From: a virus
Virus record (IMG/VR): IMGVR_UViG_3300012979_000037
Span: 1-64,000 of that record
Reading direction: 5' to 3' (one strand)
DNA length: 64,000 nt
Shown: piece after piece, positions 20,830 to 47,830 of the stretch
Numbering within the stretch: position 1 is the stretch's first letter
Layout of the letters: each line of letters opens with the position of its first letter
The notes under the pieces: model-generated
Seen by the model: the letters and a program-made list of their open reading frames with translations, nothing else
What the model was told of the DNA's origin: nothing
Databases searched by the model: none
Program-made: the position numbers and the translations under genes

Positions 20830-20834
20830 AATTG

Positions 20835-21348: not shown

Positions 21349-21382
21349 ATAAAAAAATAAATAAATAAAATAAATAAATATT

Positions 21383-23633: not shown

Positions 23634-23643
23634 ATATTTTATA

Positions 23644-25272: not shown

Positions 25273-25280
25273 AATACTAT

Positions 25281-25787: not shown

Positions 25788-25793
25788 ATCAAT

Positions 25794-26827: not shown

Positions 26828-26923
26828 ATCTATATAATAATAAAAAAGAGAAGATATCTAAAAGACATCTCCTCATAAAATTCATCTAAATATTATTTAT
26901 AGTTTCTTTTCGTATTCAACTAT

Positions 26924-27415: not shown

Positions 27416-27416
27416 A

Positions 27417-28375: not shown

Positions 28376-28389
28376 ATTATTTATAATAA

Positions 28390-31619: not shown

Positions 31620-33465
31620 TTTTTTATTAAATATTATCTATAAAATTGTTGAGTTTTTAGATAAACAAAATGAGCAAGAAGATAAAATAGTATGGTCTCA
31701 TATACTCAATGGAGTAGAAGTCTATTCAAAATCAGGTTGGGTACCTGCGACATATATTCATGAAACTAAACCATTTATAGTATATAAGATAACTACTAAA
31801 AATGGTCTTCATTTAGATTGCGCTGATGATCATTTAGTTTTTGATGAAAATATGAATACTATTTTAGTAAAAGATTTAAAAATAGGAAGTAATATTCAAA
31901 CAGAATTTGGTTTAGATAAAATAGTAAATATTGAAAAGGTAGATATAAAAATATCAATGTGCGACTTATCAGTATTAGAAGAAGATGAAAGTTATTATAC
32001 AAATCATATATTATCCCATAATACTACTACTTCAGCTATATTCCTCTTACATTACGCTCTTTTTAATACCGATAAAAACACATTAGTTTTGGGGAATAAA
32101 CGCAAAACAGCTGTCGAGATATTAGATAAAATTAAGAAGATTTATTTAGAGATTCCTTACTATCTCAAACCGGGTATTTTAAAATGGAATGAAAGTGAAA
32201 TCGTCTTCGATAATGGATGTAGAGTAATGGCTGAAGCTACTACAATCAACTCAGGTATTTCATTTACCTTTCACTGCGTACTAGCAGACGAGTTCGCTCA
32301 CGTACCACCAAACATTCTTGATAAGTTCTATAATAACCTATTCCCTACTATTACCGCAGGTAGAGCTCGTTTTATCATTACATCAACCCCACTGGATTAT
32401 AATTTGTTTTATAGATTATATAAAGCAGCGGAAGCCGGAGAAAACGACTATGCTCCATTTAGTACAGATTGGTGGGAAGTACCTGAGTGGAATCCCGATA
32501 AACGTTGTTGGGAGAAGAGAGATGAAGAATGGCATCAACGTCAAATAGCCAACTATGGTAGTGAGGAAGCTTTTAATAAGCAATTTGGTGCTTCATTTGA
32601 TGTTAATGCAAATACCTTAGTGAAAGTTAAAAAGATTAAAGAAATGAGAGAAAGAGCTGTGGAGTTTATAAATAAAGATATATATGGAGTCTCTCATAGT
32701 GAGTTCTTCTCTTGGGATCCCACTTATGATCCTATGGAAGATCTAAAAAAAGACCACATAATTATTACTTGTGACTTAGCTGAGGGTGGTGGAAATGATT
32801 ATACTGTATTCATTTTTAATAAGTTACAAAAAGATGATACTATGAAAACCATTGGAATGTTTAGATGTAATAGTTTAGGTTTGGATGTAACATCAAAAAT
32901 ATTACAGGAGATATGTTGTAAATGGTGTAATTTTGATAGATTATTAGTAAGTATTGAATTAAATATGTATGGCGAGTTATTCAGTAAAATGTTATTTACA
33001 AATAGGGATACATATAATGATTTAGCTAATTTTGATGAAACTTGTTTAGTTAAGTATTATAATAAAGAAGGTAATAAGTTTACATATGGTATTAAATTGA
33101 ACTCTGGTAACAAATCAATGGGTTGTAAGTTGTTTAAAGAGAAAGTAGAAAAGGATATAGTATCAAACTTATCAACAACATTCTTAATGGAGTTGGAAAA
33201 CTTTAGTGATAATAAGGGTAATGATACATACCAAGCAACATTTGGACACGATGATGTTGTAATGGCTCAAATGCAAATTGTATTTGTTTTACAAACACCT
33301 CAATATAAATTTTTATTAGAAGATTTACAATCTGGATTATCTTCCACCCAAAAAGATTTTTATAATCCTTACCAAGATTTTTATGATCAAAATTCTTATT
33401 ATAATAATGATATATTTAATGAAGTATATAGTGAAAGTCATATAAGAAGATTAAATAGATTTTAA
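31612..33465 (+). CDS. terL: intein C-fragment (Hint blocks B, F, G ending ILSHN) fused to the terminase large subunit C-extein (ATPase remainder plus nuclease)
   Basis: Residues 1-137 contain GLHLDCADDHLVF (block B TxxH-like) and MCDLSVLEEDESYYTNHILSHN (blocks F/G, terminal HN). From T138, TTTSAIFLLHYALFNTDKN...CVLADEFAHV...GHDDVVMA aligns with T4 gp17 (GK)TTVVAIFLAHFVCFNKDK...IYIDECAF...YHDDLVMS. Confidence 0.7.
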   Translation: MINFLLNIIYKIVEFLDKQNEQEDKIVWSHILNGVEVYSKSGWVPATYIHETKPFIVYKITTKNGLHLDCADDHLVFDENMNTILVKDLKIGSNIQTEFGLDKIVNIEKVDIKISMCDLSVLEEDESYYTNHILSHNTTTSAIFLLHYALFNTDKNTLVLGNKRKTAVEILDKIKKIYLEIPYYLKPGILKWNESEIVFDNGCRVMAEATTINSGISFTFHCVLADEFAHVPPNILDKFYNNLFPTITAGRARFIITSTPLDYNLFYRLYKAAEAGENDYAPFSTDWWEVPEWNPDKRCWEKRDEEWHQRQIANYGSEEAFNKQFGASFDVNANTLVKVKKIKEMRERAVEFINKDIYGVSHSEFFSWDPTYDPMEDLKKDHIIITCDLAEGGGNDYTVFIFNKLQKDDTMKTIGMFRCNSLGLDVTSKILQEICCKWCNFDRLLVSIELNMYGELFSKMLFTNRDTYNDLANFDETCLVKYYNKEGNKFTYGIKLNSGNKSMGCKLFKEKVEKDIVSNLSTTFLMELENFSDNKGNDTYQATFGHDDVVMAQMQIVFVLQTPQYKFLLEDLQSGLSSTQKDFYNPYQDFYDQNSYYNNDIFNEVYSESHIRRLNRF

Positions 33466-34171: not shown

Positions 34172-34606
34172 ATGAGTATATTAGATGATGAAAATATTGT
34201 AGTAGAAAGTATTAAAAGAGATATCAATAATCCTTTTTTAACGCTAAGTGAATATTTAAAGGATTTTGATATAGAGGGATTTATGGAAGTAGATAAAGAA
34301 CTTGTAAAAAGAGTTTTATCTCAACTAAACCCTCCAGTACTATACGAGTATAAATTTAATTTTGAGTTTAAGGCAGACTGTATAAAATTAAATCTTTTAA
34401 ATTCAAATGATAGATTCATATGTAACGTTTTACTCATTAAAAAATTTTTTCATTGGACTGACGAAAGTATCTGGTTATATTTCGCTCTTAATATAAATTC
34501 TAATTTACGATTATTTGATAGAGATGATATTACTTTTCAAAATTTTATAAAAAGACTCGACACCACATATAATTTTAGAGAAGGTAATTTAAAATTTAAA
34601 CAATAA
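34172..34606 (+). CDS. ILDDE-leader family protein, short-leader form (MSILDDENIVVESIKRDINNPF)
   Basis: Track ORF 34148; the Met at 34172 gives the family-type start. Confidence 0.55.
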   Translation: MSILDDENIVVESIKRDINNPFLTLSEYLKDFDIEGFMEVDKELVKRVLSQLNPPVLYEYKFNFEFKADCIKLNLLNSNDRFICNVLLIKKFFHWTDESIWLYFALNINSNLRLFDRDDITFQNFIKRLDTTYNFREGNLKFKQ

Positions 34607-35052
34607 TGAATAAACTTTATAAATCCATATTAGATGATGAAGATGCTTTAATAGGTGATGCTATTAAGGAATCTAAAAATCCATTCCTTACTATTAAAAA
34701 TAACTATATTAAAAGAGGTAATAAATTTAGCATAGAAGATTTAGAAGTATTAGATAAAAAGGTATTTACATATAAATATTCAAAGTATAAATATAAAAAA
34801 TATGTAAATTTTAAAAAAGAGTATGATGAAGGAAACCATATAATAAAACCTAAATATAAATGGAGATATACAGACTCTTACATAAATTTATTGGATTCCA
34901 ATGATATAGACTTACTATTTATATTCTTTACAGATGCTGGTACATTAAATATTTATATTGAAAACTGTAACAATGATTGGATTGATTTTCGATCACATAT
35001 AATTGATAAATATAATTTAACTCTAGACGTGCATAATTATTATATAATATAA
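34606..35052 (+). CDS. ILDDE-leader family protein (MNKLYKSILDDEDALIGDAIKESKNPF)
   Basis: Family leader on the + strand. Confidence 0.6.
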   Translation: MNKLYKSILDDEDALIGDAIKESKNPFLTIKNNYIKRGNKFSIEDLEVLDKKVFTYKYSKYKYKKYVNFKKEYDEGNHIIKPKYKWRYTDSYINLLDSNDIDLLFIFFTDAGTLNIYIENCNNDWIDFRSHIIDKYNLTLDVHNYYII

Positions 35053-37668: not shown

Positions 37669-37692
37669 GTATTAAAAGTACATAAAAAGAAA

Positions 37693-37722
37693 AAGAGAAG
37701 CCCTCGAGCTTCTCTTTTTTAT
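37693..37722. terminator. bidirectional rho-independent terminator between convergent genes
   Basis: Sequence aaaaagagaagccctcgagcttctcttttttat with A-run and T-run flanks. Confidence 0.6.
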
Positions 37723-38189
37723 TATAAATAAAGTGTAAATGTTTCTACTTTATCACCAGGAAATGATTCTGCAGTAAAATCAAATTTTTTTCGTAAAATG
37801 TTTGATATTATTTTATATTCTTTAAATTTGTAATAATCATTACTATAAAAATAAATTCTTATATATTTATCTTCGAACGATATGTAAAAAAACACAGGAT
37901 ATTTAAGTACATAACTAGGTCTTGCTATAACTTGTAATCTATTACTTTTAAACATACCAAAATCTCTCCCATAGTCAGGTTTTAACTTATCAAGTTTTAA
38001 ATCCTTAAATATAGAATTCATTAAGTAATATAATTCATCATCAGGAATATTTTGTAATTTTTTGTTATAATTTAACCAAGTAGAGAGAATAGTAATAAAT
38101 GGATTTTTAAAGTCATCATTAAGTCTACCTATCAACTCTTCTTCATCATCTAAAATAGATTCTCTTATATAATCATTTAGTGTTTTCAT
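37722..38189 (-). CDS. ILDDE-leader family protein (MKTLNDYIRESILDDEEELIGRLNDDFKNPF)
   Basis: Family leader; ATGA overlap with the upstream NMNAT-like gene. Confidence 0.6.
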   Translation of the reverse strand: MKTLNDYIRESILDDEEELIGRLNDDFKNPFITILSTWLNYNKKLQNIPDDELYYLMNSIFKDLKLDKLKPDYGRDFGMFKSNRLQVIARPSYVLKYPVFFYISFEDKYIRIYFYSNDYYKFKEYKIISNILRKKFDFTAESFPGDKVETFTLYL

Positions 38190-38731
38190 ATTGTCTCCAT
38201 TATATTTTTTAATTTTTCATACATACCCCAAAGTACTTGAGGAACTAACTCTTTAAATCTATCTTCGTGACCTGCTTTGAGAGCTTCTCTAACTGCTGTT
38301 GCTGATACATCATCATCATTTCTCTTAATCTCCACTAATTCGGTGTCTGGAGCATATTTAGCGACCATTCTACTATAAGATTGCACTCTATCTGTACCAC
38401 AAGTCCAAGTAGCTGCTGTTAATCCTAGGGCTCCTAATTCTTCACCTATCTTAACAATATCAGCGTTCTTAACTAATATTATATCTTCAATCTCCTCATA
38501 ATTCTTAACCAACTTTTTATAATATGGTAAAATAATTTTGGTGAGAAATGGATGTCTATCATCAACTTTTGTAGTCTCAACCATACAAATCACAGTTTTA
38601 AGACCACGATTTTTATAAACATTTTGAATACACTTTAAGTGTCCATTTGTAAAAGGTTGAAATCTACCTACTAATATATTTACTTTAGTTCTCTTAAGAG
38701 ACTCATTTATAAATTGTGTAATTGTTTTCAT
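38186..38731 (-). CDS. NMN adenylyltransferase-like nucleotidyltransferase (NadM-type HxGH family)
   Basis: N-terminal VNILVGRFQPFTNGH matches the NadM/NadR-type motif GRFQPFH.GH of cytidylyl/adenylyltransferases. Confidence 0.55.
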   Translation of the reverse strand: MKTITQFINESLKRTKVNILVGRFQPFTNGHLKCIQNVYKNRGLKTVICMVETTKVDDRHPFLTKIILPYYKKLVKNYEEIEDIILVKNADIVKIGEELGALGLTAATWTCGTDRVQSYSRMVAKYAPDTELVEIKRNDDDVSATAVREALKAGHEDRFKELVPQVLWGMYEKLKNIMETI

Positions 38732-38736
38732 ATATT

Positions 38737-39345
38737 TTAACTTAATTCTACAAATTCAAAATCAATATTATTAAACTTAAATGTAACTTCAAATGTATTA
38801 GATTCTCTATCTACTTTTGAATACGTGAAATCTAATCCTTCAATACCATCAATAAAAACATCCATTAATTTAATACGTGAGGTGATTTTTCCAGTCTCAT
38901 CTAAAATATCAATTAAAAATACCTCTTCTTGTTTATTATTCAATGGTTTTAAATACTTATAAAATATCGTCTCATACATCATAAAATAATTATAGAGACC
39001 TTGATTTAATCTAAAAGTAACCTTAAACTCTTTATTAATTCTTGATAAAGGGTTAGAAGACTCCAAATAAGTAATTTCATGAATTGGCTCAACATTGATT
39101 TTCCCTAATCCCTTACTTGTTCTTTTTATACTATTACTCTCACGTTGTTGTTGAGAGAGTACCAAATCATTCATACCAGGTATATTTATAGATTGAATAC
39201 TCTCGTTTAAATAGTCAATAGGTTTTTGAATAACTCCAGCGTTACTATTTAATATATTATAATATTTACCCTCAATTTCCTTTGGAAGAAAATCTAAAGG
39301 TAAAATAAATTTAAATAAATCAAATCTAGGGCTTAATGATAGCAT
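38737..39345 (-). CDS. hypothetical protein
   Basis: 202-aa ORF. Confidence 0.5.
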   Translation of the reverse strand: MLSLSPRFDLFKFILPLDFLPKEIEGKYYNILNSNAGVIQKPIDYLNESIQSINIPGMNDLVLSQQQRESNSIKRTSKGLGKINVEPIHEITYLESSNPLSRINKEFKVTFRLNQGLYNYFMMYETIFYKYLKPLNNKQEEVFLIDILDETGKITSRIKLMDVFIDGIEGLDFTYSKVDRESNTFEVTFKFNNIDFEFVELS

Positions 39346-39357
39346 ATCTTATATATC

Positions 39358-39804
39358 TTATTTTTCTAAATAATACCAACCTTGAAATTTATCAGCTGGT
39401 ACATCAATATGTTCAAAATCATATTTTTTAATAAAACTCTTTATAAATTTAAGAGCATTAGGGCCAAATTTTTCTTTTGAATTAGATATAGTATTATCAA
39501 CTAGTAAACAGCAAGCATTTTTTGGTAATATAGGTGTTTGACAACTAAATGAAATTTCAAATAAAGTAGTTGAAGTACTCTCTATAATTATTCTTATAAA
39601 GTTCTTTCCAACAAAATACCTCACTCCATTTGGTAGAGGAAATTTAGACATAATTCCCTCAGCATATCTTTCCCAAGCTCTATAACTATTTTTCAACTCA
39701 TCATATTTAATCTTTAATACTCGAAATGGATTTTGAGTATCCTTGATTGAGTTTCCAATCAAAGTATCTTCGTCATCTAATATGGATTCGTATAATGTTT
39801 TCAT
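39358..39804 (-). CDS. ILDDE-leader family protein (MKTLYESILDDEDTLIGNSIKDTQNPF)
   Basis: Family leader. Confidence 0.6.
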   Translation of the reverse strand: MKTLYESILDDEDTLIGNSIKDTQNPFRVLKIKYDELKNSYRAWERYAEGIMSKFPLPNGVRYFVGKNFIRIIIESTSTTLFEISFSCQTPILPKNACCLLVDNTISNSKEKFGPNALKFIKSFIKKYDFEHIDVPADKFQGWYYLEK

Positions 39805-39816
39805 TATATTAGTATT

Positions 39817-40257
39817 TTATTGTAAATAGTAAATATTTTTTGAAGCGTGTTTCAAATTATACTTTTTAGCCCAAGATTTCATATAATATTTCATTTTCTT
39901 TTGACCCCATTCTCCATATTCTGAAAATTCTATAAATAATTTACAATCATATGAAATTCCATTATATGAAAATTCATCATCTAATGTAATATAACATAAT
40001 GATATATTATGATCATCATGTATACAAAACAATTTTTTATCTATTATATTAATCTCGAACGCAGTCAATTCAGAATTAAGAGGTAACTCAAGTGGTTTTA
40101 AAATATTTGAAATATCTTTTTGTTTTCCAAAAGGGATTTTTTTACCATTTGATATATAATAATTATATAATACTATAAAAGGATTTTGTGAGTCCTTAAT
40201 AGAGTTGCCTATTAAAACATCTTCGTCATCTAATATGGATTCATATAATGTTTTCAT
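39817..40257 (-). CDS. ILDDE-leader family protein (MKTLYESILDDEDVLIGNSIKDSQNPF)
   Basis: Family leader. Confidence 0.6.
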   Translation of the reverse strand: MKTLYESILDDEDVLIGNSIKDSQNPFIVLYNYYISNGKKIPFGKQKDISNILKPLELPLNSELTAFEINIIDKKLFCIHDDHNISLCYITLDDEFSYNGISYDCKLFIEFSEYGEWGQKKMKYYMKSWAKKYNLKHASKNIYYLQ

Positions 40258-40709
40258 AATTTAAATACTCGCACAATTTTATTATTGTTGCCTTTTGTTG
40301 TTTTAGCACCAAACTGTTTATTAATTTTATTTTCAATAGATTCATATTCATTTTGAGTTAAATCATAAACTTTCAGTTTATCCTTATCTGAATAATCATC
40401 TCTATCATAATCATTCATAAATTCTATTTTAGCTTCGTTTGCATTGATCTTATTAATAAACAAAAATGGCAATGTTCCCTCAAACCAATAATATAAATCA
40501 TCTCCGCTTGATTCCCAATGACAATATTTTTGATCTCCAGCTATATAAATTTCATTATCATTCAACCATTTGCAGCATTCTGTAAATTTATCTCTCTTAA
40601 TGAATTTTTTAATAGTATCACACCATTGAGCTAATTCAACAGCCTGTCCGATCAATACATCTTCATCATCTAATATAGATTCTCTTATATAATCATTTAA
40701 TGTTTTCAT
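40254..40709 (-). CDS. ILDDE-leader family protein (MKTLNDYIRESILDDEDVLIGQAVE)
   Basis: Family leader. Confidence 0.6.
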   Translation of the reverse strand: MKTLNDYIRESILDDEDVLIGQAVELAQWCDTIKKFIKRDKFTECCKWLNDNEIYIAGDQKYCHWESSGDDLYYWFEGTLPFLFINKINANEAKIEFMNDYDRDDYSDKDKLKVYDLTQNEYESIENKINKQFGAKTTKGNNNKIVRVFKL

Positions 40710-40710
40710 A

Positions 40711-41205
40711 TTATTGATAAATGTAAATTTCTCCTACTCTATAAGGACTTTTTTTAGTTTTTAATTTATATTTTTTACACAATTTACTTGGTATTGCACT
40801 CCAAGCTTGTTTTGATTTAATGTTGTTTTCGTTGTGAATATTGATCGTTGAGATTGAATTTATTGTCATTATAAAGCAACCTACACCATTAATTGAATTA
40901 TCTTTATAGTATATAAATGAAATATCCGGAATTCTAATTTGTTGATATTTATTAAATATACCTACCGTTCTTTCTTCATCAATCCAAGTGATTGGTTTAA
41001 TTTCAACGTCACTCTTATCCTTAAAGACACTCATTATATCTTTTTGAAACCCTTCACTTCTAAACACCTCTAACAAATCCTTTTGCTTACAATTTGGATT
41101 ACTAATGAGTTCTTGAAGAGTATGGAACCAGCTCTCTGATAAATTCTTTGCTCTACCAATCAACTCTTCTTCATCATCTAATATGGATTCATATAATTTT
41201 TTCAT
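40711..41205 (-). CDS. ILDDE-leader family protein (MKKLYESILDDEEELIGRAKN)
   Basis: Family leader; first gene of the second minus-strand array. Confidence 0.6.
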   Translation of the reverse strand: MKKLYESILDDEEELIGRAKNLSESWFHTLQELISNPNCKQKDLLEVFRSEGFQKDIMSVFKDKSDVEIKPITWIDEERTVGIFNKYQQIRIPDISFIYYKDNSINGVGCFIMTINSISTINIHNENNIKSKQAWSAIPSKLCKKYKLKTKKSPYRVGEIYIYQ

Positions 41206-41213
41206 AATTTATA

Positions 41214-41249
41214 TTAAAGTTTTTTCCTCATTTTTATATCTTTATATAT
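41214..41249 (+). promoter_or_regulatory. Recurrent promoter-like motif in a divergent intergenic region
   Basis: Sequence taaagttttttcctcatttttatatctttatatata upstream of ATG 41281. Confidence 0.4.
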
Positions 41250-41280
41250 AATAATATACACAAATCAACTTTTATAGAAT

Positions 41281-41679
41281 ATGACATTAAATGGTACATT
41301 AGAAGTTAGCGACGTCCAACAGGAATTTGATAAGTTGCAGTCTTGGGAAAAGAAACAATTTATTGCACAAAACATCGATCACTTTGGTGTTTTTGATACG
41401 TGTGATTTAATAAATAGTTTTAATATTGATACTTGGGACTTACTTCAACATTTCTCTACAGGAGATATATGCGAATACTTTAATTATAATGAATTATTAA
41501 GAGAGATTGGTAAGGATGAAATAATTCAATATTTATTATGTTGGAGCACTCTTTCAAATGAGGATATTGAAGAGATTTTAGAAGATAAGTTGTATAATAG
41601 TTCAAAAACTAATCTTATAAAACTTGAAACCATTTTGAGTAAAATTATTGAAAAACTTCGCAAAGAAAATATAAAATAA
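41281..41679 (+). CDS. hypothetical protein
   Basis: 132-aa ORF. Confidence 0.5.
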   Translation: MTLNGTLEVSDVQQEFDKLQSWEKKQFIAQNIDHFGVFDTCDLINSFNIDTWDLLQHFSTGDICEYFNYNELLREIGKDEIIQYLLCWSTLSNEDIEEILEDKLYNSSKTNLIKLETILSKIIEKLRKENIK

Positions 41680-41911: not shown

Positions 41912-42628
41912 ATGGAAAAATTTAAACAAGTAATTGTAATTCCAGATGTTCATGGAAGAACTTTTTGGAAGGAAGCCATTAAGGGTAAAGAAGATCAACA
42001 AATTATCTTTTTAGGAGATTATGTAGATCCATACCCACATGAGGAGATTAGTGAAATTCAAACATTAGAAAATCTCCAAGAAATTATTCACTTTAAGATG
42101 GCTCATCCAGATAATGTAATTCTTTTAATTGGTAATCACGATTGCTCCTATATGTACTCACCGAGTGTATGTAATTGTCGCTACTCATATAAATATGCAA
42201 AGGATTTTCAAAGGTTATTTAGCGATAATAAATATTTATTTCAAATGGCTTATGAATGTGAAGTAAATGGTAAAGTGTATGAGTTTAGTCACGCGGGAAT
42301 ATCAAATCGATGGATTGATCGCATCAAAGATTTATCCATTGTAGGTAAGTACGCAGAAGAAACTAATGTAGAATATATCAATCGCTTATATAATGATCAC
42401 CAAGATGTATTAGTTGAATTTTTAAAGGATTGTGGTTGGTATCGCGGAGGTAGTTATACTTCAGGATCTTGCGTATGGAGTGATGTAAGAGAATGGCTTC
42501 GTAAATATGAACCGAATACAAGCAAGAATATTCAAGTATTTGGACACACTCAACTAGAGAAGGATCCATATATTATTCCTAATAAAATTTTGTGTTTGGA
42601 TTGTAGAAAAGAATATATTTTGGAGTAA
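41912..42628 (+). CDS. calcineurin-like metallophosphoesterase (Ser/Thr phosphatase-like)
   Basis: Motifs IPDVHG, FLGDYVDPYPHE and LIGNHD are the DxHG / GDxxD / GNH(D/E) signature. Confidence 0.6.
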   Translation: MEKFKQVIVIPDVHGRTFWKEAIKGKEDQQIIFLGDYVDPYPHEEISEIQTLENLQEIIHFKMAHPDNVILLIGNHDCSYMYSPSVCNCRYSYKYAKDFQRLFSDNKYLFQMAYECEVNGKVYEFSHAGISNRWIDRIKDLSIVGKYAEETNVEYINRLYNDHQDVLVEFLKDCGWYRGGSYTSGSCVWSDVREWLRKYEPNTSKNIQVFGHTQLEKDPYIIPNKILCLDCRKEYILE

Positions 42629-42633: not shown

Positions 42634-43314
42634 ATGATACTTGATGATGAAGATATTTTAATACAAGCTGCTATAGATTCAGCTTGTTACAAAATGGTTG
42701 ATTTAGGTTTATCAGTTAAATGGGCTAATAAGAACGTCGGAGCTTCTCACCCTGAAGATGCTGGATTGTATTTTCAATGGGGTGATACTATAGGGTATAC
42801 GGCAGATCAAGTAGGTAAAGATAAAACATTTAATTGGGAATCTTATTTCGATACTACAGATAGAGGGGATACTTTTAATATATACAATAATAATGGAGGT
42901 TTAACAGTACTATTATCTGCAGACGATGCTGCAACAGTTCATATGGGATCTCAATACAGAATGCCAACAGTAGATGAAATAAGAGAACTTATGAATAATA
43001 CAAAACAGACATTTATCGATTTAAATGATAATGGGTATAGTAAAATTCAAGCCAAAAATGGGGCTATCAAATCTGGAAAGTTAAAAGGAGTAAGATTTAC
43101 AGGTTCAAATGGTAATAGTATTTTTATACCAGCAGCAGGTTATTGTGCTGATCCTTGTATGAATAGTATTGGAGTATCTGGTACATTATGGTCTTCTAGT
43201 TTGAGTGGTAGTTACAACGGTTGTGCTAGAAGTTTGAATTTCTATTATGATGCGGATGTTTATGATATTAGTGATAGGCGCAATTATGGGGCATGTGTTC
43301 GTGGTGTAGAATAA
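42634..43314 (+). CDS. ILDDE-leader family protein (short leader MILDDEDILI) with Fib_succ_major-type C-terminal domain
   Basis: GLSVKWANKNVGA...GLYFQWG matches the Fibrobacter succinogenes major paralogous domain signature common in Bacteroidetes. Confidence 0.55.
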   Translation: MILDDEDILIQAAIDSACYKMVDLGLSVKWANKNVGASHPEDAGLYFQWGDTIGYTADQVGKDKTFNWESYFDTTDRGDTFNIYNNNGGLTVLLSADDAATVHMGSQYRMPTVDEIRELMNNTKQTFIDLNDNGYSKIQAKNGAIKSGKLKGVRFTGSNGNSIFIPAAGYCADPCMNSIGVSGTLWSSSLSGSYNGCARSLNFYYDADVYDISDRRNYGACVRGVE

Positions 43315-43394: not shown

Positions 43395-44039
43395 ATGAAT
43401 TACAAGAATTTAACAGAACTCGAAAAGAATCAATTAGTTAAACAGTACGAAAACTTGATCGTGAAGATCACAAATCAATTTGCGAAAAGTGTAAAGTGTC
43501 CTTGGGAGGATTTACAATCATATGCTTATGAAGGTTTTGCTTTAGCAATTCAAAAGTATGATGATCAACGTTCTACAATGACATTTACACAATATGCTGC
43601 ATATTATATGCGAAATAACATTTTGAATTCACTTAATAACGAATTGCGTACCGTTAAGTTGGATGCATATGCTCAAAAGAAGGTGGAGCAAGGTGGAGGA
43701 CAATCTTTTAATACCATTTCAATTGATAATTGTAATGATGAAGAAGGAGTACAAACTCACAAGATTTTGATGAGTATTGCAATAGAGGATAAATTTTCTA
43801 ATGGGGATGTGTTTGATTATTTATATTCGCGTTTGGAGGATGAGTTCTCCTATCGAGATTGTGAAATCTTTTATAAAACCTTTGGATTAAAAGAGTTTGA
43901 TGTTGAGAAAGGTATGGATATCGCAAAACAATATGATATCTCTGCCGGACTGGTGTCACAAAAGGTCTCCAAAATTATTAAATGGATTCGCAAGGATAAT
44001 GAATTATGTGAACAATTAAGTGAATTACTTAAGTTTTGA
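43395..44039 (+). CDS. RNA polymerase sigma factor (sigma-70-family-like, phage-encoded)
   Basis: Region-2-like SYAYEGFALAIQKYDDQRSTMTFTQYAAYYMRNNI and region-4-like HTH ISAGLVSQKVSKIIKWIRK. Confidence 0.5.
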   Translation: MNYKNLTELEKNQLVKQYENLIVKITNQFAKSVKCPWEDLQSYAYEGFALAIQKYDDQRSTMTFTQYAAYYMRNNILNSLNNELRTVKLDAYAQKKVEQGGGQSFNTISIDNCNDEEGVQTHKILMSIAIEDKFSNGDVFDYLYSRLEDEFSYRDCEIFYKTFGLKEFDVEKGMDIAKQYDISAGLVSQKVSKIIKWIRKDNELCEQLSELLKF

Positions 44040-44062: not shown

Positions 44063-44662
44063 ATGATAATTAGAAAGAAGTTTAATGTAGAAAGTGCTCA
44101 CATTGTACGTAATTGCACTTCAGAGAGATGCTCTCACTCAATTCACGGCCACTCTGCTGTGATTGAAGTATTTTTGGAAAGTAATTTTTTGGATAATGCG
44201 CAAATGGTTTATGATTTTGGACTAATGAAGTCTACTATTAAACAATTTGTTGATTCTATGGATCATTGCTATCTATTGTGTTCTCAGGATAGTGAGGAGT
44301 TTAAGAGTTTTATTAAGTCTACCTGTGATCGTTGGATTGAACTTCCATTTAATCCTTCAGCAGAGATGTTGAGTATGTTTGTATTTTCAGGAGTTCAAAA
44401 GATTTTGAATAATACATATAAAAATAATGGGGAGGATTATATTCAAACACACGCTGTTCGTTATCACGAAACAACTACAGGTTATGCTGAGTGTAATGCT
44501 ATGGATGTTGCTAGATTTCAAAATATTATTGATTTTGATTCTATCATATATTCAGAAGGTGTAATGAAAGATTGGGGTAGTGATTTGAAATCTATCTTTG
44601 AGGGAGATGTAGTTACTAATCCTCTTATTAAACAACAAATAAAGTTAAATACAATTCTTTAA
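44063..44662 (+). CDS. queD: 6-carboxy-5,6,7,8-tetrahydropterin synthase QueD-like (with C-terminal extension)
   Basis: Motifs FNVESAHIV and CSHSIHGHSAVIEV (Cys-x-x-x-His-Gly-His) match the QueD/PTPS zinc site. Confidence 0.65.
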   Translation: MIIRKKFNVESAHIVRNCTSERCSHSIHGHSAVIEVFLESNFLDNAQMVYDFGLMKSTIKQFVDSMDHCYLLCSQDSEEFKSFIKSTCDRWIELPFNPSAEMLSMFVFSGVQKILNNTYKNNGEDYIQTHAVRYHETTTGYAECNAMDVARFQNIIDFDSIIYSEGVMKDWGSDLKSIFEGDVVTNPLIKQQIKLNTIL

Positions 44663-44663
44663 T

Positions 44664-45470
44664 ATGTTACCAGTAGTAGAAATTTTTACAAGTATTCAAG
44701 GTGAAGGTAAATTCACAGGAGTTCCTTCAATCTTTGTGAGAGTAAGTGGTTGTAATTTGAGATGTGTGTTTAAAGACTCAGTATGTGATACTCCTTATAC
44801 TTCATTTAATCCAGAGCATAGTTTATATAAATCAATGGATGAATTGGTAAAAGCATTTAAGGAAGAGCAAGAAAGATATCCACGAGTTAAACACGTAGTA
44901 GTTACAGGTGGTGAACCATTAATGTATAAGAGGGATTTGGAAGAGTTTTTAGCTCGTGTGTATGATGATACAATGATGATCACTATTGAAACAAACGGTA
45001 CTAAACCAATTTTGAATCCATTGAATGGTAAGTTTAGAATTGAGTTATATAGTGTGAGTCCAAAATTGAGTACCTCAGTAGGTAAACCAGGTAAGTATAA
45101 TGGTGTAGAAGTAACACAAGGAATGATTGAACGTCACAATTGTGAGAGACTTAATTATCAAAACTTGGTGGATATTGCAACAAGTGCGAACTATCAATTT
45201 AAGTTTGTATATAGTGGTCCAGAGTGTGTTGAAGAGATTAAGAATATTTATAGAGAGATGGGAAAGATTGTTTGTAATCAAGATGATCAATTCTATAATT
45301 TCTATATGAAACATCACCCAATGAAACACACAATGCTTATGCCAGAGGGCATTAAAGTAGATCAATTGGATCAAAAAACAAAGGAAATGGCTCAAGTATG
45401 TTTAGAAAATGGTTGGCAATTTACAGATCGTTTACACATTCGTATTTGGGGTGATATGAGAGGAGTGTAA
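44664..45470 (+). CDS. queE: 7-carboxy-7-deazaguanine synthase QueE (radical SAM)
   Basis: PVVEIFTSIQGEGKFTGVPSIFVRVSGCNLRCVF..DSVCDT at the N-terminus; C-terminal RIWGDMRGV parallels LLWGNKRGV of bacterial QueE. Confidence 0.75.
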   Translation: MLPVVEIFTSIQGEGKFTGVPSIFVRVSGCNLRCVFKDSVCDTPYTSFNPEHSLYKSMDELVKAFKEEQERYPRVKHVVVTGGEPLMYKRDLEEFLARVYDDTMMITIETNGTKPILNPLNGKFRIELYSVSPKLSTSVGKPGKYNGVEVTQGMIERHNCERLNYQNLVDIATSANYQFKFVYSGPECVEEIKNIYREMGKIVCNQDDQFYNFYMKHHPMKHTMLMPEGIKVDQLDQKTKEMAQVCLENGWQFTDRLHIRIWGDMRGV

Positions 45471-45473
45471 GTT

Positions 45474-45686
45474 ATGAAAAGTGTATTTTTATTAGAACAA
45501 AAGATTTTTAATGGCACTATATTAATAGCCACTATTAATACCGGATTTAGTACTAAAGAATTAGCAGAAAAGGCATTACAATCTACAAAAAAAGCCAATG
45601 AAGATGGTGAGTTTATTAATACATATAATATAAACGAAATCCAAATTTATGAGGAAGAACAAGAAATACCAATAATGAATAAATAA
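45474..45686 (+). CDS. hypothetical protein
   Basis: 70-aa ORF. Confidence 0.4.
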   Translation: MKSVFLLEQKIFNGTILIATINTGFSTKELAEKALQSTKKANEDGEFINTYNINEIQIYEEEQEIPIMNK

Positions 45687-45694
45687 AATCTGCG

Positions 45695-46000
45695 ATGAAA
45701 ACTAGACTTTTAAAGAAGCTTAGAAAAACAGCAAAGAATAAATTCTTTCCAGTTTTACTTGAAACCGGAATAGTTATTTCGACATATAATGAAACCGGAT
45801 ATAATAGATTGAATTTAACATACAGTATTGCTGGTAGTCCATATGCTTGGGTTAATCAATTTTCGCCTTGTTGGGTATTTGACACACAAAAGTCTATTCA
45901 AAAAATGTTAGATCGTGTTCGCCGAGATTTTATCATTGAATATATTAAAGCTGAAAAGGAAAAAAGGAGATTAAATAACGAATTCAATAAAATACAATAA
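45695..46000 (+). CDS. hypothetical protein; paralog of 15600..15956
   Basis: Shared N-terminus KTRLLKKLRKTAKNK. Confidence 0.45.
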   Translation: MKTRLLKKLRKTAKNKFFPVLLETGIVISTYNETGYNRLNLTYSIAGSPYAWVNQFSPCWVFDTQKSIQKMLDRVRRDFIIEYIKAEKEKRRLNNEFNKIQ

Positions 46001-46002
46001 TT

Positions 46003-46371
46003 ATGAAGAAAGAACAATATCCACTATATGTGGTAAATGAAGAGAAGAAAGCAATTTCTTGCAAAATTAAAACTAAAGGAGAATTTTTTATAGGTGTAGC
46101 GAAATGCTGCGACGAGGATACATTTGATATTCAACGAGGTAAAGACATCGCATATAATCGTTGTCGATTGGAGATTAATAAATATGTCCTCAATCAAGAC
46201 ATTGTTGTAAGGGACACCATTCAAGACATTATTCGTCAATACGATGGCATGGGGCTTTCAAAACAATGTAATAAGGCTTGGTATGATTATTTAGAGGATA
46301 TCAAACGCCGTATTAAAGTACGTAAAGCTATTATCTACCATACTGAACAAAAAATTAAAGAACTTTTGTAA
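46003..46371 (+). CDS. hypothetical protein
   Basis: 122-aa ORF. Confidence 0.45.
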   Translation: MKKEQYPLYVVNEEKKAISCKIKTKGEFFIGVAKCCDEDTFDIQRGKDIAYNRCRLEINKYVLNQDIVVRDTIQDIIRQYDGMGLSKQCNKAWYDYLEDIKRRIKVRKAIIYHTEQKIKELL

Positions 46372-46511
46372 TTTATATATAGCAATATCTCCATTGGATG
46401 TTGAGTATATGGTAGATAACGAATTAAAAAGTCCATCAAGAAATACAATATCAAAGTTACTGAATTGACCAGTGGCGTAGAAGATGGAATTAAACAAATA
46501 TATCGAACACA

Positions 46512-46934
46512 ATGATTAAAAGAGAATTGAAAAACGTAAAAGTGGATGATTTAATCCCATATGAAGCCAACCCACGTAGAAATAACAAATCTGCAAAAAT
46601 CGTAGCAAAATCAATTGAAGCGTATGGATATATAAATCCAATTCTAGTGACAGATAAAAATATCATCCTCGCTGGACATACTCGTCTTAAAGCACTTAAA
46701 CTTTTAGGTATCGAAGAGGTGGAAGTTTTAGTTATTTCTGGTTTGAGTGATGAACAAATCCACGGTTTTGTAATTGCGGATAACAGGGTAGGAGAATATT
46801 CTAGATGGAATTATGCGGCAGTTGATCGCATGATGGCTGGTGTTTCAAAAGATGATAAATTACTAAAAGAGCTTGGTATGAGTTCGTTTGTTGATAATAA
46901 AAAAGATTTGGAGGATTTGATTAATGGAAACTAA
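46512..46934 (+). CDS. ParB-like nuclease domain protein (mini DpdB-like partner of DpdA)
   Basis: LIPYEANPRRNN...LAGHTRLKALKLLG is the ParB N-terminal domain signature; overlaps the DpdA start. Confidence 0.55.
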   Translation: MIKRELKNVKVDDLIPYEANPRRNNKSAKIVAKSIEAYGYINPILVTDKNIILAGHTRLKALKLLGIEEVEVLVISGLSDEQIHGFVIADNRVGEYSRWNYAAVDRMMAGVSKDDKLLKELGMSSFVDNKKDLEDLINGN

Positions 46935-47790: not shown

Positions 47791-47830
47791 TAAATTATAT
47801 ATTTTATATTAAATTTAAACTGTAAAGAAT

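What the first reader, a model, noticed from the sequence alone, without database searches (positions are those of the whole stretch)
37722..41205. Second ILDDE-leader array interleaved with an NMNAT-like gene
Five leader-family genes (37722, 39358, 39817, 40254, 40711) lie on the minus strand. They are co-oriented and translationally coupled with a NadM-type NMN adenylyltransferase-like gene (38186..38731, motif GRFQPFTNGH) and a 202-aa unknown (38737..39345).

A phage-encoded NMNAT inside an array of putative ejected effectors is a candidate NAD+-reconstitution activity, which would counter NAD-depleting defence systems (established knowledge: phage NAD salvage pathways NARP1/NARP2). No NadV/Nampt partner is visible in this window.
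Basis: partly seen in the sequence, partly recalled or inferred. Interest (0 to 1): 0.6.

Follow-up and report, generated by a model that had tools for sequence, protein, structure and literature searches.

The report
Capsid-tagged protein array with NMNAT-like enzyme
A large T4-like phage has one operon of small, fast-diversifying genes that all begin with a tag resembling the signal phage T4 uses to load proteins into its head for injection. The same tag sits on a neighbouring enzyme that looks like an NAD-making adenylyltransferase, but none of this is proven biochemically.

Summary
Seven co-oriented, tightly packed minus-strand genes (41205..37722) end at a strong terminator hairpin. Five belong to the ILDDE-leader family, which has 17 members in the window.

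The "202-aa unknown" is a T4 gp3-like tail-tube terminator. The 181-aa enzyme is a HIGH-superfamily nucleotidyltransferase. Its nearest relatives by profile, motifs and fold are NadM/NadR-type NMN adenylyltransferases. It falls far below every curated NMNAT threshold, so its substrate is unproven.

New points:
- The leader has two parts: a decapeptide, MKTLNDYIRE|S (or MKTLYE|S), followed by ILDDEDxLIG.
- The decapeptide matches the T4 capsid-targeting sequence MKTYQEFIAE|A, including the (L/I)-x-E site cut by the prohead protease.
- The enzyme itself starts MKTITQFINE|S.
- The window comes from a T4-like phage (gp2, gp3, T4-type terminase, baseplate hub), and the arrays vary in copy number between close relatives.

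Best reading: a hyperplastic late operon of capsid-targeted, injected proteins in the T4 IP/Alt style, one of which is probably an NMNAT.

The window has no Nampt, PRPP synthase, Nudix or PnuC gene. A NadR-RNK-like kinase (54783..55325) is only a weak candidate partner. NAD+ reconstitution is plausible but not shown.

The parts
41206..41280 (.). Divergent 75-bp intergenic region upstream of the array. It is the presumed promoter region of the seven-gene unit.
   Evidence: Lies between 40711..41205(-) and 41281..41679(+). The promoter is inferred, not shown. Sigma-70-type scans are not informative here.
40711..41205 (-). Leader-family gene, 164 aa, MKKLYE|SILDDEEELIG (short form).
40254..40709 (-). 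Leader-family gene, 151 aa, MKTLNDYIRE|SILDDEDVLIG (long form).
   Evidence: Its 65-nt 5' end is 91% identical to that of 37722..38189.
39817..40257 (-). Leader-family gene, 146 aa, MKTLYE|SILDDEDVLIG. Its start overlaps the upstream stop by 4 nt.
   Evidence: It is 40% identical to 27902..28375 of the first array.
39358..39804 (-). Leader-family gene, 148 aa, MKTLYE|SILDDEDTLIG.
   Evidence: Its 79%-identical orthologue in the 237.7-kb relative carries the long form MKTLNDYIKES instead.
38737..39345 (-). T4 gp3-like tail-tube terminator (tail-tube fold family), 202 aa. It is a virion structural gene, not an unknown.
   Evidence: The family has 272 representatives. The family profile hits T4 gp54 at 4.8e-5 and T4 gp3 at 8.9e-5 in PDB. 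Twenty-one of 61 members hit phrog_45 'tail tube'. hhalign against T4 gp3 gives probability 92%, E 6.7e-7, over 129 columns; against gp19 the probability is 3%.
38186..38731 (-). HIGH-superfamily nucleotidyltransferase, 181 aa, NadM/NadR-NMNAT-like. Motifs are GRFQPFTNGH (22-31), HPF (59-62), WTCGTDR (109-115) and VSATAVR (142-148). The N-terminal extension MKTITQFINE|S resembles the T4 capsid-targeting sequence.
37722..38189 (-). Leader-family gene, 155 aa, MKTLNDYIRE|SILDDEEELIG. Its start overlaps the nucleotidyltransferase stop by 4 nt.
37690..37719 (-). Intrinsic-terminator-like hairpin (13-bp stem, T-run, flanked by an A-run, so usable from both sides). It closes the array.
22609..28375 (-). 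First array. It holds seven leader-family genes (27902, 27417, 26924 [true start probably at 27415], 26012, 25281, 23118, 22609), a 71-aa gene with the decapeptide only (25794..26009, MKNLSEYILE|A) and a 542-aa structural-type gene. It lies directly downstream of a baseplate-hub gene (28742..29809).
   Evidence: The close relative has three more leader genes here.
34172..35052 (+). Two leader-family genes directly after the gp2 DNA-end-protector gene. They start MS-ILDDENIVV and MNKLYKS-ILDDED.
42634..43314 (+). 226-aa protein starting MILDDEDILI (core motif without the decapeptide), with a different, larger cargo.
   Evidence: There is only a weak Lcl_C hit, E 0.029, and no NCBIfam hit.
57056..57997 (-). 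Fusion protein: nucleoside-diphosphate-kinase domain (aa 16-131), then NLQE|SILDDEDELI at aa ~141-155, then a leader-family-like C-terminal part.
53387..53719 (+). 110-aa protein that carries the decapeptide only (MKTILQYISE|S).
58078..58497 (+). Leader-family gene starting MILDDEDILI.
62361..62780 (+). Leader-family gene starting MILDDEDILV. A 483-aa RNA ligase gene follows just outside the window.
54783..55325 (+). 180-aa P-loop kinase of Pfam AAA_28 (the family of the NadR ribosylnicotinamide-kinase domain). It is a weak candidate partner of the nucleotidyltransferase.
   Evidence: For: Pfam 3e-14, full length, above cut-off. The family profile's top PDB hit is the H. influenzae NadR RNK domain 1lw7 at 7.8e-4. 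It hits phrog_3462 'NMNAT' at positions 170-333, while the nucleotidyltransferase hits positions 4-74 of the same profile. Against: its best PHROG is 'thymidylate kinase' at 1e-25. Its cultured-phage distribution does not overlap that of the nucleotidyltransferase.

Best explanation
**What it is.** The region is one late transcription unit in a hyperplastic region of a large T4-like myovirus. Low GC, missing Shine-Dalgarno sequences and an anaerobic NrdG gene point to an anaerobic, Bacteroidota-type host.

The unit encodes three kinds of product:
- a structural protein, the gp3-like tail-tube terminator;
- five members of a rapidly diversifying family of ~150-aa proteins;
- a NadM/NadR-like adenylyltransferase.

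**Proposed mechanism.**
1. The N-terminal decapeptide (M-K-T-hydrophobic-x-x-aromatic-I-x-E) works like the T4 capsid-targeting sequence. It docks the protein on the scaffolding core of the prohead.
2. A gp21-type prohead protease cuts after (L/I)-x-E. This releases mature proteins that begin S-ILDDED..., or, for the enzyme, S-LKRTKVNILVGRFQPF...
3. The proteins stay in the head and enter the cell with the DNA, like T4 IPI-III and Alt. There they act in the first minutes of infection, most plausibly against host defences.
4. The tagged enzyme most likely joins ATP to NMN or NaMN to make NAD+ or NaAD.

**Shown:** gene layout, family membership, the two-part leader, its N-terminal exclusivity, T4-like genomic context, copy-number plasticity, and the fold and motif class of the enzyme.

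**Inferred:** targeting, cleavage, injection, substrate and anti-defence role.
For: 1. **Match to the T4 signal.** T4 IPII and IPIII start MKTYQEFIAE|A, and IPI starts MKTFKEF...ITE|A (read from NC_000866). gp21 cuts after L/I-x-E. Residues 4 and 7 of the capsid-targeting sequence direct targeting, and residues 8 and 10 direct processing (PMC9026906). Window proteins start MKTLNDYIRE|S, MKTITQFINE|S, MKTILQYISE|S and MKNLSEYILE|A, with the same spacing.
2. **N-terminal exclusivity.** All 9 occurrences of K-x4-[FYW]-[IL]-x-E-[SA] in the window proteome are at N-termini.
3. **Diverse cargo.** The tag sits on the paralogue family, the nucleotidyltransferase, two unrelated small proteins and the junction of an NDK fusion (NLQE|SILDDED).
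4. **Converging N-termini.** In 106 of 120 database relatives [LIVM]-x-E-[SA] directly precedes ILDDE, and 10 more start MS-ILDDE. All forms therefore converge on one mature N-terminus.
5. **Extensions of the enzyme.** Among 120 homologues of the enzyme, 97 have no N-terminal extension. All 13 credible extensions fit the decapeptide.
6. **Other T4-like contigs.** In 80 IMG/VR loci around homologues, 19 unique ORFs start with the motif against 0.44 expected, for example MKTYNDFIKESL and MKNIKEYINESLFDDEDDLLD. The motif also follows the enzyme domain directly in 9 fusion proteins.
7. **T4-like context.** The window has gp2 (BLAST 4.6e-9; Pfam Phage_T4_gp2), gp3-like, a T4-type terminase and a baseplate hub. 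In T4, ipI lies beside 57B-57A-1-3-2.
8. **Plasticity.** The 237.7-kb relative has a different number of leader genes in both arrays and swaps the long and short leader forms in an orthologue.
9. **Alt resemblance.** T4 Alt, a packaged enzyme, starts MELITE|LFDEDTTLPI, which resembles MKTLYE|SILDDEDTLIG.
10. **Virion detection in a cyanophage.** A putative cytidylyltransferase was detected in purified virions of T4-like cyanophage S-SM1 (PMC3037559). Foldseek matches the model to cyanophage 'cytitidyltransferases'.
11. **Class of the enzyme.**
Against: - There are no proteomic or biochemical data.
- No gp21-type protease or gp22 scaffold gene lies in the 82-kb contig or in any fetched locus. 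Their presence is inferred from T4-like core-gene conservation.
- The most conserved part of the leader (ILDDEDxLIG..NPF) lies after the predicted cut. It occurs without the decapeptide in five window genes, so the decapeptide cannot be the whole story.
- Seventeen or more distinct internal proteins is far more than T4 has.
- Curated NMNAT models score only ~25 bits.
- I did not establish that the virion-detected cyanophage protein (T4-GC190) is an orthologue.
Confidence: 0.45

Rival explanations
1. The enzyme is a cytoplasmic NMNAT that, with a salvage partner, rebuilds NAD+ during infection to defeat NAD+-depleting defences. It would be a split version of the NadR-type route (nicotinamide riboside to NMN to NAD+) used by NARP3. 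The kinase step would be supplied by 54783..55325. The leader genes would be merely neighbours.
For: - The family profile hits only NMNATs at the top of PDB, including the NARP3 enzyme entry 9x6f at 0.0086.
- The GRFQPF-x-GH and ISAT-x-R motifs are present.
- The kinase is a full-length AAA_28 protein. Its profile's best PDB hit is the NadR RNK domain.
- The enzyme and the kinase hit the N- and C-terminal halves of the same two-domain phage family, phrog_3462.
- In another relative (L009/L010) the two genes lie ~2 kb apart.
- NARP3 is experimentally established (PMC13464706).
Against: - The window has no PnuC, Nampt/NAPRTase, PRPP synthase or Nudix domain.
- The two genes are 16 kb apart, on opposite strands.
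- Cultured phages with the kinase (Flavobacterium, Bacteroides, Campylobacter, Streptomyces) and those with the enzyme (Stenotrophomonas, Vibrio, Xanthomonas, Agrobacterium, Caulobacter) do not overlap.
- The best PHROG for the kinase is 'thymidylate kinase' at 1e-25. A paralogue sits inside a 7-deazaguanine gene cluster.
- The kinase lies within 10 kb of the enzyme in only 7 of 80 IMG/VR loci.
- Every curated NMNAT cut-off is missed by a wide margin.
Confidence: 0.2
2. The enzyme belongs to the widespread 'cytitidyltransferase' family of T4-like phages and nucleotidylates some other substrate. Candidates are a phosphorylated cofactor precursor as in PPAT, a sugar or alcohol phosphate, or a carboxylate as in citrate-lyase ligase or TmcAL. 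Its resemblance to NMNAT would reflect only the shared fold.
For: - Only the generic Pfam family passes its threshold. The C-terminal part also hits Citrate_ly_lig and HIGH_NTase1.
- The best PHROGs are named 'cytidyltransferase'.
- Viral structural neighbours are cyanophage 'cytitidyltransferases', often embedded in 300-1100-aa multidomain proteins whose other domains are unrecognised.
- The family has its own invariant W-x-C-G-T-D-R motif.
Against: - GRFQPF and the arginine of the I-S-x-T-x-x-R motif are NadM/NadR-NMNAT features, not PPAT or TagD features.
- No cytidylyltransferase appears among the sequence-profile hits.
- Cytidylyltransferases rank well below the NMNATs in fold.
Confidence: 0.3
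3. The leader family is not head cargo. Two variants are possible. (a) The proteins are cytoplasmic host-takeover or anti-defence proteins, and their shared N-terminus is a common interaction helix or a recombination handle. (b) They are exchangeable virion-surface or baseplate-attached proteins, and the conserved N-terminus is a docking peptide. In either case the likeness to the T4 signal would be coincidental.
For: - The best-conserved segment (ILDDEDxLIG..NPF) is not the decapeptide, and five genes have it alone.
- Members also share a C-terminal KKYxFK...Y motif, so they are true paralogues rather than unrelated cargo.
- Many phage proteins start MK(T).
- The genes sit among tail and baseplate genes.
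- The 65-nt 5' ends are up to 91% identical at DNA level, enough for recombination.
Against: - This reading does not explain why the same decapeptide, with the same (L/I)-x-E-[SA] ending, sits on an enzyme, on unrelated small proteins, at the junction of an NDK fusion, and on diverse ORFs in distant T4-like contigs.
- It does not explain why the three N-terminal forms converge on one predicted mature end.
- Enzymes are unlikely surface adhesins.
Confidence: 0.25

Closest known systems
Phage T4 internal proteins IPI, IPII and IPIII and their capsid-targeting sequence (CTS), with the packaged ADP-ribosyltransferase Alt
   Same: - A ~10-residue N-terminal tag of the same pattern and length, ending in the gp21 cleavage motif (L/I)-x-E followed by S or A.
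- The tag is constant while the cargo is hypervariable.
- The genes lie in plastic regions beside gp3 and gp2.
- An enzyme is among the tagged proteins, as Alt is in T4.
- Alt has an acidic stretch after its cut site (LFDEDTTL) like ILDDEDTL.

   Different: - At least 17 paralogues plus 3 other tagged proteins in 64 kb, against three IPs in T4.
- A second, even better conserved module (ILDDEDxLIG..NPF) follows the predicted cut and can stand alone.
- There is also a short 6-residue form (MKTLYE|S).
- The cargoes share a C-terminal motif.
- The host lineage is very distant.
- Packaging and cleavage are not demonstrated.
NadM (archaeal-type) and NadR-type NMN adenylyltransferases (PDB 1f9a, 1ej2, 2qjo, 2qjt, 1lw7)
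   Same: - Single Rossmann-like HIGH domain of ~170 aa.
- GRFQPF-x-x-GH and I/V-S-x-T-x-x-R motifs, plus a (N/H)PF(T) motif.

   Different: - 16-20% identity.
- Thr replaces the first His of HxGH.
- A family-specific invariant WxCGTDR motif.
- Scores ~25 bits against curated cut-offs of 112-449.
- No Nudix or RNK domain is attached.
- It carries a CTS-like N-terminal extension.
NARP3 (phage PnuC-like transporter plus bifunctional NadR-like RNK/NMNAT, Bas30_86/87; PMC13464706)
   Same: The only known phage NAD+ route whose enzymology (RNK plus NadR-type NMNAT) could be assembled from genes seen in this window (38186..38731 and 54783..55325).
   Different: - NARP3 is an adjacent two-gene operon with the two activities fused in one protein, and it needs the transporter.
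- Here the candidates are separate genes 16 kb apart on opposite strands.
- No PnuC is detectable.
- The kinase assignment is weak.
NARP2 (Nampt plus NMNAT) and NARP1 (Adps plus Namat)
   Same: For NARP2, the last step would be an NMNAT reaction.
   Different: No NAPRTase/Nampt-family or PRPP-synthase-like gene in any window ORF of 70 aa or more. The rest of the genome was not examined.
'Cytitidyltransferase' genes of T4-like cyanophages (S-PM2, P-HM2, S-RIM2 and others; cluster T4-GC190 of Sullivan et al. 2010)
   Same: - Same fold family by Foldseek (E 1e-8 to 1e-9).
- Stand-alone and multidomain versions exist.
- They occur in T4-like phages near structural genes.
- One such protein was found in purified S-SM1 virions.
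   Different: - Sequence relationship is remote.
- Orthology to the virion-detected protein was not tested.
- The function of the cyanophage proteins is itself unknown.
T4 gp3 tail-tube terminator / sheath stabiliser (for 38737..39345)
   Same: - hhalign probability 92% over 129 columns.
- Similar size (202 against 176 aa).
- Lies near gp2.

   Different: About 17% identity. The N-terminal ~50 residues do not align.

Membership tests
NadM/NadR-type NMN adenylyltransferase | Rossmann-like HIGH nucleotidyltransferase fold | tested here: met
NadM/NadR-type NMN adenylyltransferase | G-x-F-x-P-x-H-x-G-H ATP motif | tested here: inconclusive
   GRFQPFTNGH. The GRFQPF part is NadM-like, but the first His is Thr (nearly invariant in the family), as in PPAT.
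NadM/NadR-type NMN adenylyltransferase | C-terminal I-S-x-T-x-x-R motif | tested here: met
   D-V-S-A-T-A-V-R at 141-148. S143 and R148 are invariant; A144 and T145 are at least 90% conserved.
NadM/NadR-type NMN adenylyltransferase | Score above curated family thresholds (NCBIfam NF002243, TIGR01527, NF003791, TIGR00482) | tested here: not met
   18.9-25.2 bits against cut-offs of 112-409 bits for these four models.
NadM/NadR-type NMN adenylyltransferase | NMN/NaMN-dependent adenylyl transfer | not testable with these tools
   Needs an enzyme assay.
TagD-type glycerol-3-phosphate (and related) cytidylyltransferases | Closest sequence and fold relatives are cytidylyltransferases | tested here: not met
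NARP3 | Bifunctional NadR-like protein (RNK and NMNAT in one chain) | tested here: not met
   The enzyme is a single domain of 181 aa. The AAA_28 kinase is a separate gene 16 kb away.
NARP3 | Adjacent PnuC-type nicotinamide riboside transporter | tested here: not met
   No NMN_transporter hit in any window membrane protein, even at E up to 1. The rest of the genome was not examined.
NARP3 | Ribosylnicotinamide kinase activity present | tested here: inconclusive
   AAA_28 at 3e-14; NadR RNK domain 1lw7 at 7.8e-4; phrog_3462 C-terminal half at 1e-5. However, 'thymidylate kinase' phrog_2107 scores 1e-25, and the phyletic pattern differs from that of the enzyme.
NARP2 | Nampt (NAPRTase family) gene in the phage | tested here: not met
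   Absent from all window ORFs of 70 aa or more. The remaining ~170 kb of the genome was not examined.
NARP1 | PRPS-like Adps plus Namat | tested here: not met
   No Pribosyltran or PRPP-synthase-type hit in the window. The rest of the genome was not examined.
T4-type capsid-targeted internal proteins | N-terminal ~10-residue tag resembling MKTYQEFIAE (hydrophobic at position 4, aromatic at position 7) | tested here: met
   MKTLNDYIRE, MKTITQFINE, MKTILQYISE and MKNLSEYILE against the T4 sequences read. The pattern occurs only at N-termini.
T4-type capsid-targeted internal proteins | gp21 cleavage motif (L/I)-x-E at the end of the tag | tested here: met
   I-R-E|S, I-N-E|S, L-Y-E|S, and L-Q-E|S in the NDK fusion. 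It is present in 106 of 120 database relatives. The rule comes from PMC9026906. This is met at sequence level only.
T4-type capsid-targeted internal proteins | Constant tag on hypervariable cargo in plastic loci | tested here: met
   Cargo identity is 40% or less. Gene number differs from the close relative in both arrays.
T4-type capsid-targeted internal proteins | Genome encodes a gp21-family prohead protease and a gp22-type scaffolding core | tested here: inconclusive
   Not found in the 82-kb contig or in fetched loci. About 155 kb of the genome was unseen. Other T4 core genes are present.
T4-type capsid-targeted internal proteins | Physical presence in heads, processed N-terminus, ejection with the DNA | not testable with these tools
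   Needs virion proteomics. The only indirect hint comes from cyanophage S-SM1.
T4 gp3 tail-tube terminator | Profile-level homology to gp3 rather than to tube protein gp19 | tested here: met
   hhalign probability 92% (gp3) against 3% (gp19). PDB profile hits are gp54 and gp3.

The most novel reading that the evidence does not exclude
The phage loads an NAD+-synthesising enzyme, along with a score of other tagged proteins including an NDK-derived one, into its head and injects it with the DNA. A metabolic counter-defence would then be in place before any phage gene is expressed. The decapeptide would be a sequence-readable address label, conserved across the whole T4 superfamily, that lets the injected proteome be listed from a genome alone.
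Probability: 0.15. Interest if true: 0.8.

Novelty: new variant of a known kind. Interest (0 to 1): 0.58.

Why it matters
If the tag works as in T4, three things follow:
- The set of proteins that uncultured T4-like phages of gut or anaerobic hosts inject can be read directly from sequence. This window alone has about 20.
- That set becomes a ready list of candidate anti-defence proteins for a host group where few are known.
- It would include enzymes, which raises the possibility that NAD+ repair is delivered as cargo rather than expressed after entry.

It would also give a function-relevant handle on the long-unexplained 'cytitidyltransferase' genes of T4-like cyanophages.

If the tag does not work that way, the region is still a clear example of a hyperplastic paralogue array in a T4-like jumbo phage.

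Tried and rejected
- **Single-sequence AF2 of the enzyme.** The model was poor (pLDDT 59) and I discarded it in favour of the alignment-based model.
- **Leader against cultured phages.** tblastn with a leader consensus and with a full-length leader protein found nothing significant in 50,697 phage records. The family has no cultured representative.
- **DNA search of the region.** Only a 38-nt match, to an unannotated 462-kb metagenomic phage.
- **Pfam, PHROG and NCBIfam on the leader proteins.** No family.
- **Fibrobacter-type paralogous domain in 42634..43314.** My guess was not supported: only Lcl_C at E 0.029, and no NCBIfam hit.
- **PnuC among window membrane proteins.** None.
- **RNA-ligase domain in multidomain homologues.** The ~420-aa N-terminal domain fused to the enzyme in marine contigs looked like an RNA ligase (VTEKI.. 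/ ..DGS motif). This was not supported: no Pfam or PDB hit, and hhalign against T4 Rnl2 gave probability 0.6%.
- **T4 head genes.** Local tblastn of T4 gp20/21/22/23/24 against all fetched loci gave no hits, so the protease could not be confirmed.
- **T4 late-promoter motif.** TATAAATA is enriched twofold in the window (52 against 25 expected), but it does not sit consistently upstream of the array, so I drew no promoter conclusion.
- **Kinase as partner.** Its co-occurrence with the enzyme is weak.

Full report
**1. Observation**

They are packed with gaps of +1, +5, +12 and +12 nt and two 4-nt ATGA overlaps. Nothing terminator-like lies inside the block. A 13-bp-stem hairpin with a T-run sits at 37690..37719, immediately after the last stop. 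Upstream there is a 75-bp divergent intergenic region (41206..41280). The simplest reading is one transcription unit.

The leader is not a chance feature:
- A six-frame scan for [ILVM][ILVM]D[DE][DE] finds 17 long ORFs with the motif in their first 40 residues. There is one further internal copy.
- Copies differ at synonymous sites, so the peptide is what is conserved.
- The family has 660 relatives in the metagenomic protein database. All are ~120-170 aa, unnamed, and without a Pfam or PHROG family. None is in a cultured phage.

**2. Where the window comes from**

The window is positions 8067-72066 of an 81,830-bp metagenomic contig. GC is about 28%, coding density is about 91%, and gene starts lack Shine-Dalgarno sequences.

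It carries T4-type genes:
- large terminase;
- gp2 DNA-end protector (BLAST to T4 gp2 4.6e-9);
- baseplate hub;
- Gp10_C-type baseplate domains.

A closely related contig is 237.7 kb long, so this is a jumbo T4-like myovirus. An anaerobic NrdG gene fits an anaerobic, Bacteroidota-type host. So do the nearest cultured relatives of one window gene, which are in Flavobacterium and Bacteroides phages. The host is an inference.

**3. The 202-aa 'unknown'**

An exhaustive search gives a family of 272 representatives of ~190-215 aa.
- Its profile hits T4 gp54 (4.8e-5) and the T4 gp3 tube terminator (8.9e-5) among solved structures.
- Twenty-one of 61 members hit PHROG 'tail tube'.
- hhalign aligns the family to T4 gp3 over 129 columns with probability 92%. 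Against the tube protein gp19 the probability is only 3%.

The gene is therefore a gp3-like tail-tube terminator, a late structural gene. This dates the operon as late. It also mirrors T4, where ipI lies next to 57B-57A-1-3-2.

**4. The 181-aa enzyme**

*Family searches*
- Pfam gives only the generic CTP_transf_like family (27 bits, cut-off 21). There are weaker C-terminal hits to Citrate_ly_lig and HIGH_NTase1.
- NCBIfam lists many NMNAT/NaMNAT models, but at ~14-25 bits against cut-offs of 112-449.
- PHROGs call it 'cytidyltransferase'.

*Homologues and profile*
- It has at least 345 homologues, mostly ~170-190 aa and often on contigs over 100 kb.
- A 58-sequence alignment shows invariant R23, Q25, P26, G30, H31, D57, P61, F62, W109, C111-R115, S143 and R148.
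- That profile, searched against PDB, finds NMNATs first: 2qjo 1.9e-6, 1f9a 8.8e-6, 1ej2 6.7e-4, NadR 1lw7 2.2e-3. The recent phage NadR-like entry 9x6f scores 8.6e-3.

*Structure*
- The alignment-based AlphaFold model is confident (pLDDT 92).

*Motifs*
- GRFQPF and the ISxTxxR arginine are NadM/NadR-like.
- The Thr in T-x-G-H is PPAT-like.

Conclusion: this is a divergent adenylyltransferase whose nearest characterised relatives make NAD+. It is not a demonstrable member of any curated NMNAT family, and its substrate is unproven.

**5. Salvage partners**

Every window ORF of 70 aa or more was scanned against Pfam. There is no NAPRTase/Nampt, PRPP synthase, Nudix or PnuC.

One candidate emerged: 54783..55325, a 180-aa full-length AAA_28 P-loop kinase (3e-14).
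- Evidence for a link:
  - Its family profile's best solved hit is the ribosylnicotinamide-kinase domain of H. influenzae NadR (7.8e-4).
  - It matches positions 170-333 of phrog_3462, a two-domain phage 'NMNAT' family. The enzyme matches positions 4-74 of the same family.
  - In another relative the two genes are ~2 kb apart.
- Relevance: the newly described NARP3 pathway uses exactly a NadR-like RNK/NMNAT enzyme plus a PnuC transporter (PMC13464706).
- Evidence against a link:
  - The kinase's best PHROG is 'thymidylate kinase' (1e-25).
  - A paralogue sits in a 7-deazaguanine cluster.
  - Cultured phages with the kinase and those with the enzyme do not overlap.
  - The kinase lies within 10 kb of the enzyme in only 7 of 80 IMG/VR loci.

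I treat the pairing as a lead, not a finding.

**6. Anatomy of the leader**

The leader has two separable modules.

*Module A* is a decapeptide, MKTLNDYI[RK]E followed by S, or a 6-residue form, MKTLYE followed by S. *Module B* is ILDDE[DE]xL[IV]G....D..NPF.

| Content | Genes |
|---|---|
| Module A only | enzyme (MKTITQFINE-S), 53387..53719 (MKTILQYISE-S), 25794..26009 (MKNLSEYILE-A) |
| Module B only | 34172 (MS-ILDDE) and 42634, 58078, 62361 (M-ILDDED); 34606 (MNKLYKS-ILDDED) has a variant prefix without the Glu |

- All nine occurrences of K-x4-[FYW]-[IL]-x-E-[SA] in the window proteome are N-terminal.
- In the NDK fusion (57056..57997), module B is internal and is preceded by N-L-Q-E-S.
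- Among 120 database relatives, 106 have [LIVM]-x-E-[SA] directly before ILDDE, and 10 start MS-ILDDE.
- After a cut following the Glu, or after methionine removal, all forms would therefore begin S-ILDDE.
- An orthologous pair swaps the short and long forms.

**7. Link to T4**

Sequences read from the T4 genome:
- IPII and IPIII start MKTYQEFIAE-A.
- IPI starts MKTFKEF...ITE-A.
- Alt starts MELITE-LFDEDTTLPI.

According to PMC9026906:
- The first 10 residues of IPIII suffice for head targeting.
- Residues 4 and 7 matter for targeting, and residues 8 and 10 for processing.
- gp21 cuts after L/I-x-E.

The window decapeptides have the same length, M-K-T, a hydrophobic residue at 4, an aromatic at 7, Ile at 8 and Glu at 10, followed by Ser or Ala. 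The enzyme's version shares 6 of 10 residues with T4. Module B resembles the acidic stretch that follows the cut in Alt.

PMC3012670 describes T-even internal proteins as a highly diverse set of defence-countering proteins sharing only a conserved targeting sequence. That is the pattern seen here.

**8. Support from other genomes**

- Both arrays differ in gene number between the window and its close relative. The second array has 2 rather than 4 leader genes before gp3, an extra 130-aa gene, and 3 rather than 1 after the enzyme. The first array has three more.
- Among 120 enzyme homologues, 97 start directly at strand 1. All 13 credible N-terminal extensions fit the decapeptide, for example MKTIKEFISES, MKSLNRYITEA and MKSIQQYLFEA.
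- A scan of IMG/VR found 358 relatives of the enzyme. In the 80 loci kept, 19 unique ORFs start with M[KR]-x4-[FYW][ILV]-x-E[SA] against 0.44 expected. They include MKTYNDFIKESL and MKNIKEYINESLFDDEDDLLD, which carries modules A and B in a different lineage.
- In nine multidomain proteins the motif directly follows the enzyme domain, as a domain-junction cleavage site would.
- gp3-like genes lie within 10 kb of the enzyme in 8 loci.
- Foldseek against viral models identifies the family with the 'cytitidyltransferases' of T4-like cyanophages.
- Sullivan et al. detected a putative cytidylyltransferase in purified S-SM1 virions (PMC3037559). I did not verify orthology, and the sequence link is remote.

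**9. Mechanism proposed**

*Shown:* a late-type operon in a T4-like phage, a two-module leader, strict N-terminal placement, a protease-type motif, diverse cargo including an NMNAT-like enzyme, and plasticity between relatives.

*Inferred:* module A docks the proteins on the prohead core. A gp21-type protease removes it. The mature proteins remain in the head and are ejected with the DNA. They then act early, probably against host defence. The enzyme makes NAD+ or NaAD.

Module B is unexplained. It may be a second core-binding or ejection element, or the functional N-terminus of the mature proteins.

*Weak points:* the protease and scaffold genes were not seen, although only ~82 of ~238 kb was inspected. 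There are no proteomic data, and the enzyme's substrate is unknown.

**10. Verdict**

NAD+ reconstitution is unproven, there is no NARP1 or NARP2, and the resemblance to NARP3 is loose.

The system is best filed as a new variant of the T4 internal-protein/CTS system. It is greatly expanded, has a composite leader, and carries a tagged metabolic enzyme. Interest is moderate to high, because it makes the injected proteome of uncultured T4-like phages directly testable.

Noticed in passing
window 44063..48787 (+): A 7-deazaguanine DNA-modification gene set: QueD/PTPS (44063), radical-SAM QueE-like (44664), ParB_N protein (46512), TGT/DpdA-like (46924; phrog_887 'queuine tRNA-ribosyltransferase') and FolE2-type GTP cyclohydrolase (47831). 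No QueC was recognised. The relative L009/L010 adds QueF and a formyltransferase.
   Followed up: partly
window 29924..33465 (+): The large-terminase region looks interrupted. A 199-aa ORF hits terminase profile positions 95-172. It is followed by a 372-aa ORF with no terminase match (its only PHROG hit is an unknown-function family). Then comes a 617-aa terminase ORF whose N-terminal part gives an Intein_splicing hit. The close relative has one 803-aa terminase preceded by a 469-aa DUF7487 gene.
   Followed up: no
window 57056..57997 (-): A nucleoside-diphosphate-kinase domain is fused, through an L-Q-E|S-ILDDED junction, to a leader-family-like C-terminal half. This suggests a polyprotein that the prohead protease would split.
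   Followed up: partly
window 53962..54786 (+), translationally coupled to the kinase at 54783: A 274-aa protein of unknown function (phrog_19058) shares a 'VHLLG' motif with the DpdA/TGT-like protein at 46924. By eye it may be a second transglycosylase-like gene, which would tie the AAA_28 kinase to nucleotide or DNA modification rather than to NAD salvage.
   Followed up: no
IMG/VR loci L025-L090 (e.g. L026:8720-12073, L061:8789-10654, L045:9713-11083, L082:10007-12004): The enzyme domain is embedded in 300-1100-aa proteins of marine T4-like contigs. The flanking domains are unrecognised. One is a conserved ~420-aa N-terminal domain with a ligase-like 'VTEKI'/'DGS' motif in which Lys and Asp-Gly never co-occur.
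   Followed up: partly
window, whole: The T4 late-promoter octamer TATAAATA occurs 52 times against 25 +/- 5 expected. Some copies lie just upstream of leader genes, for example 28378..28385(-) before 27902..28375.
   Followed up: no
window 52274..53239 (+), 58825..59337 (+), 12845..13678 (+), 41912..42628 (+), 43395..44039 (+), 18429..18761 (+): Other recognisable genes: GH18 chitinase-like (2.6e-45), anaerobic RNR activase NrdG (1.9e-39), SPFH/Band-7 protein, Ser/Thr-type metallophosphatase, sigma-factor-like protein and a GNAT acetyltransferase.
   Followed up: no
locus L093:1663-3114 (contig sequence just beyond window end): A 483-aa RNA ligase (PHA02142/RNA_ligase) directly follows the last leader gene (62361..62780). 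A 1095-aa DEAD-type helicase and a second sigma-like gene come after it.
   Followed up: no
window 20392..21348 (+): Two adjacent ORFs both end in ...HNNMPPYLTVYMWKRIS and hit the Gp10_C baseplate domain. This looks like a local duplication of a receptor-binding tip.
   Followed up: no
window 1..22000 (+): A long run of about 60 small same-strand ORFs with almost no database families. It includes near-duplicate pairs (5848..6063 / 6940..7161 and 11476..11661 / 11658..11843), typical of an early-gene hyperplastic region.
   Followed up: no
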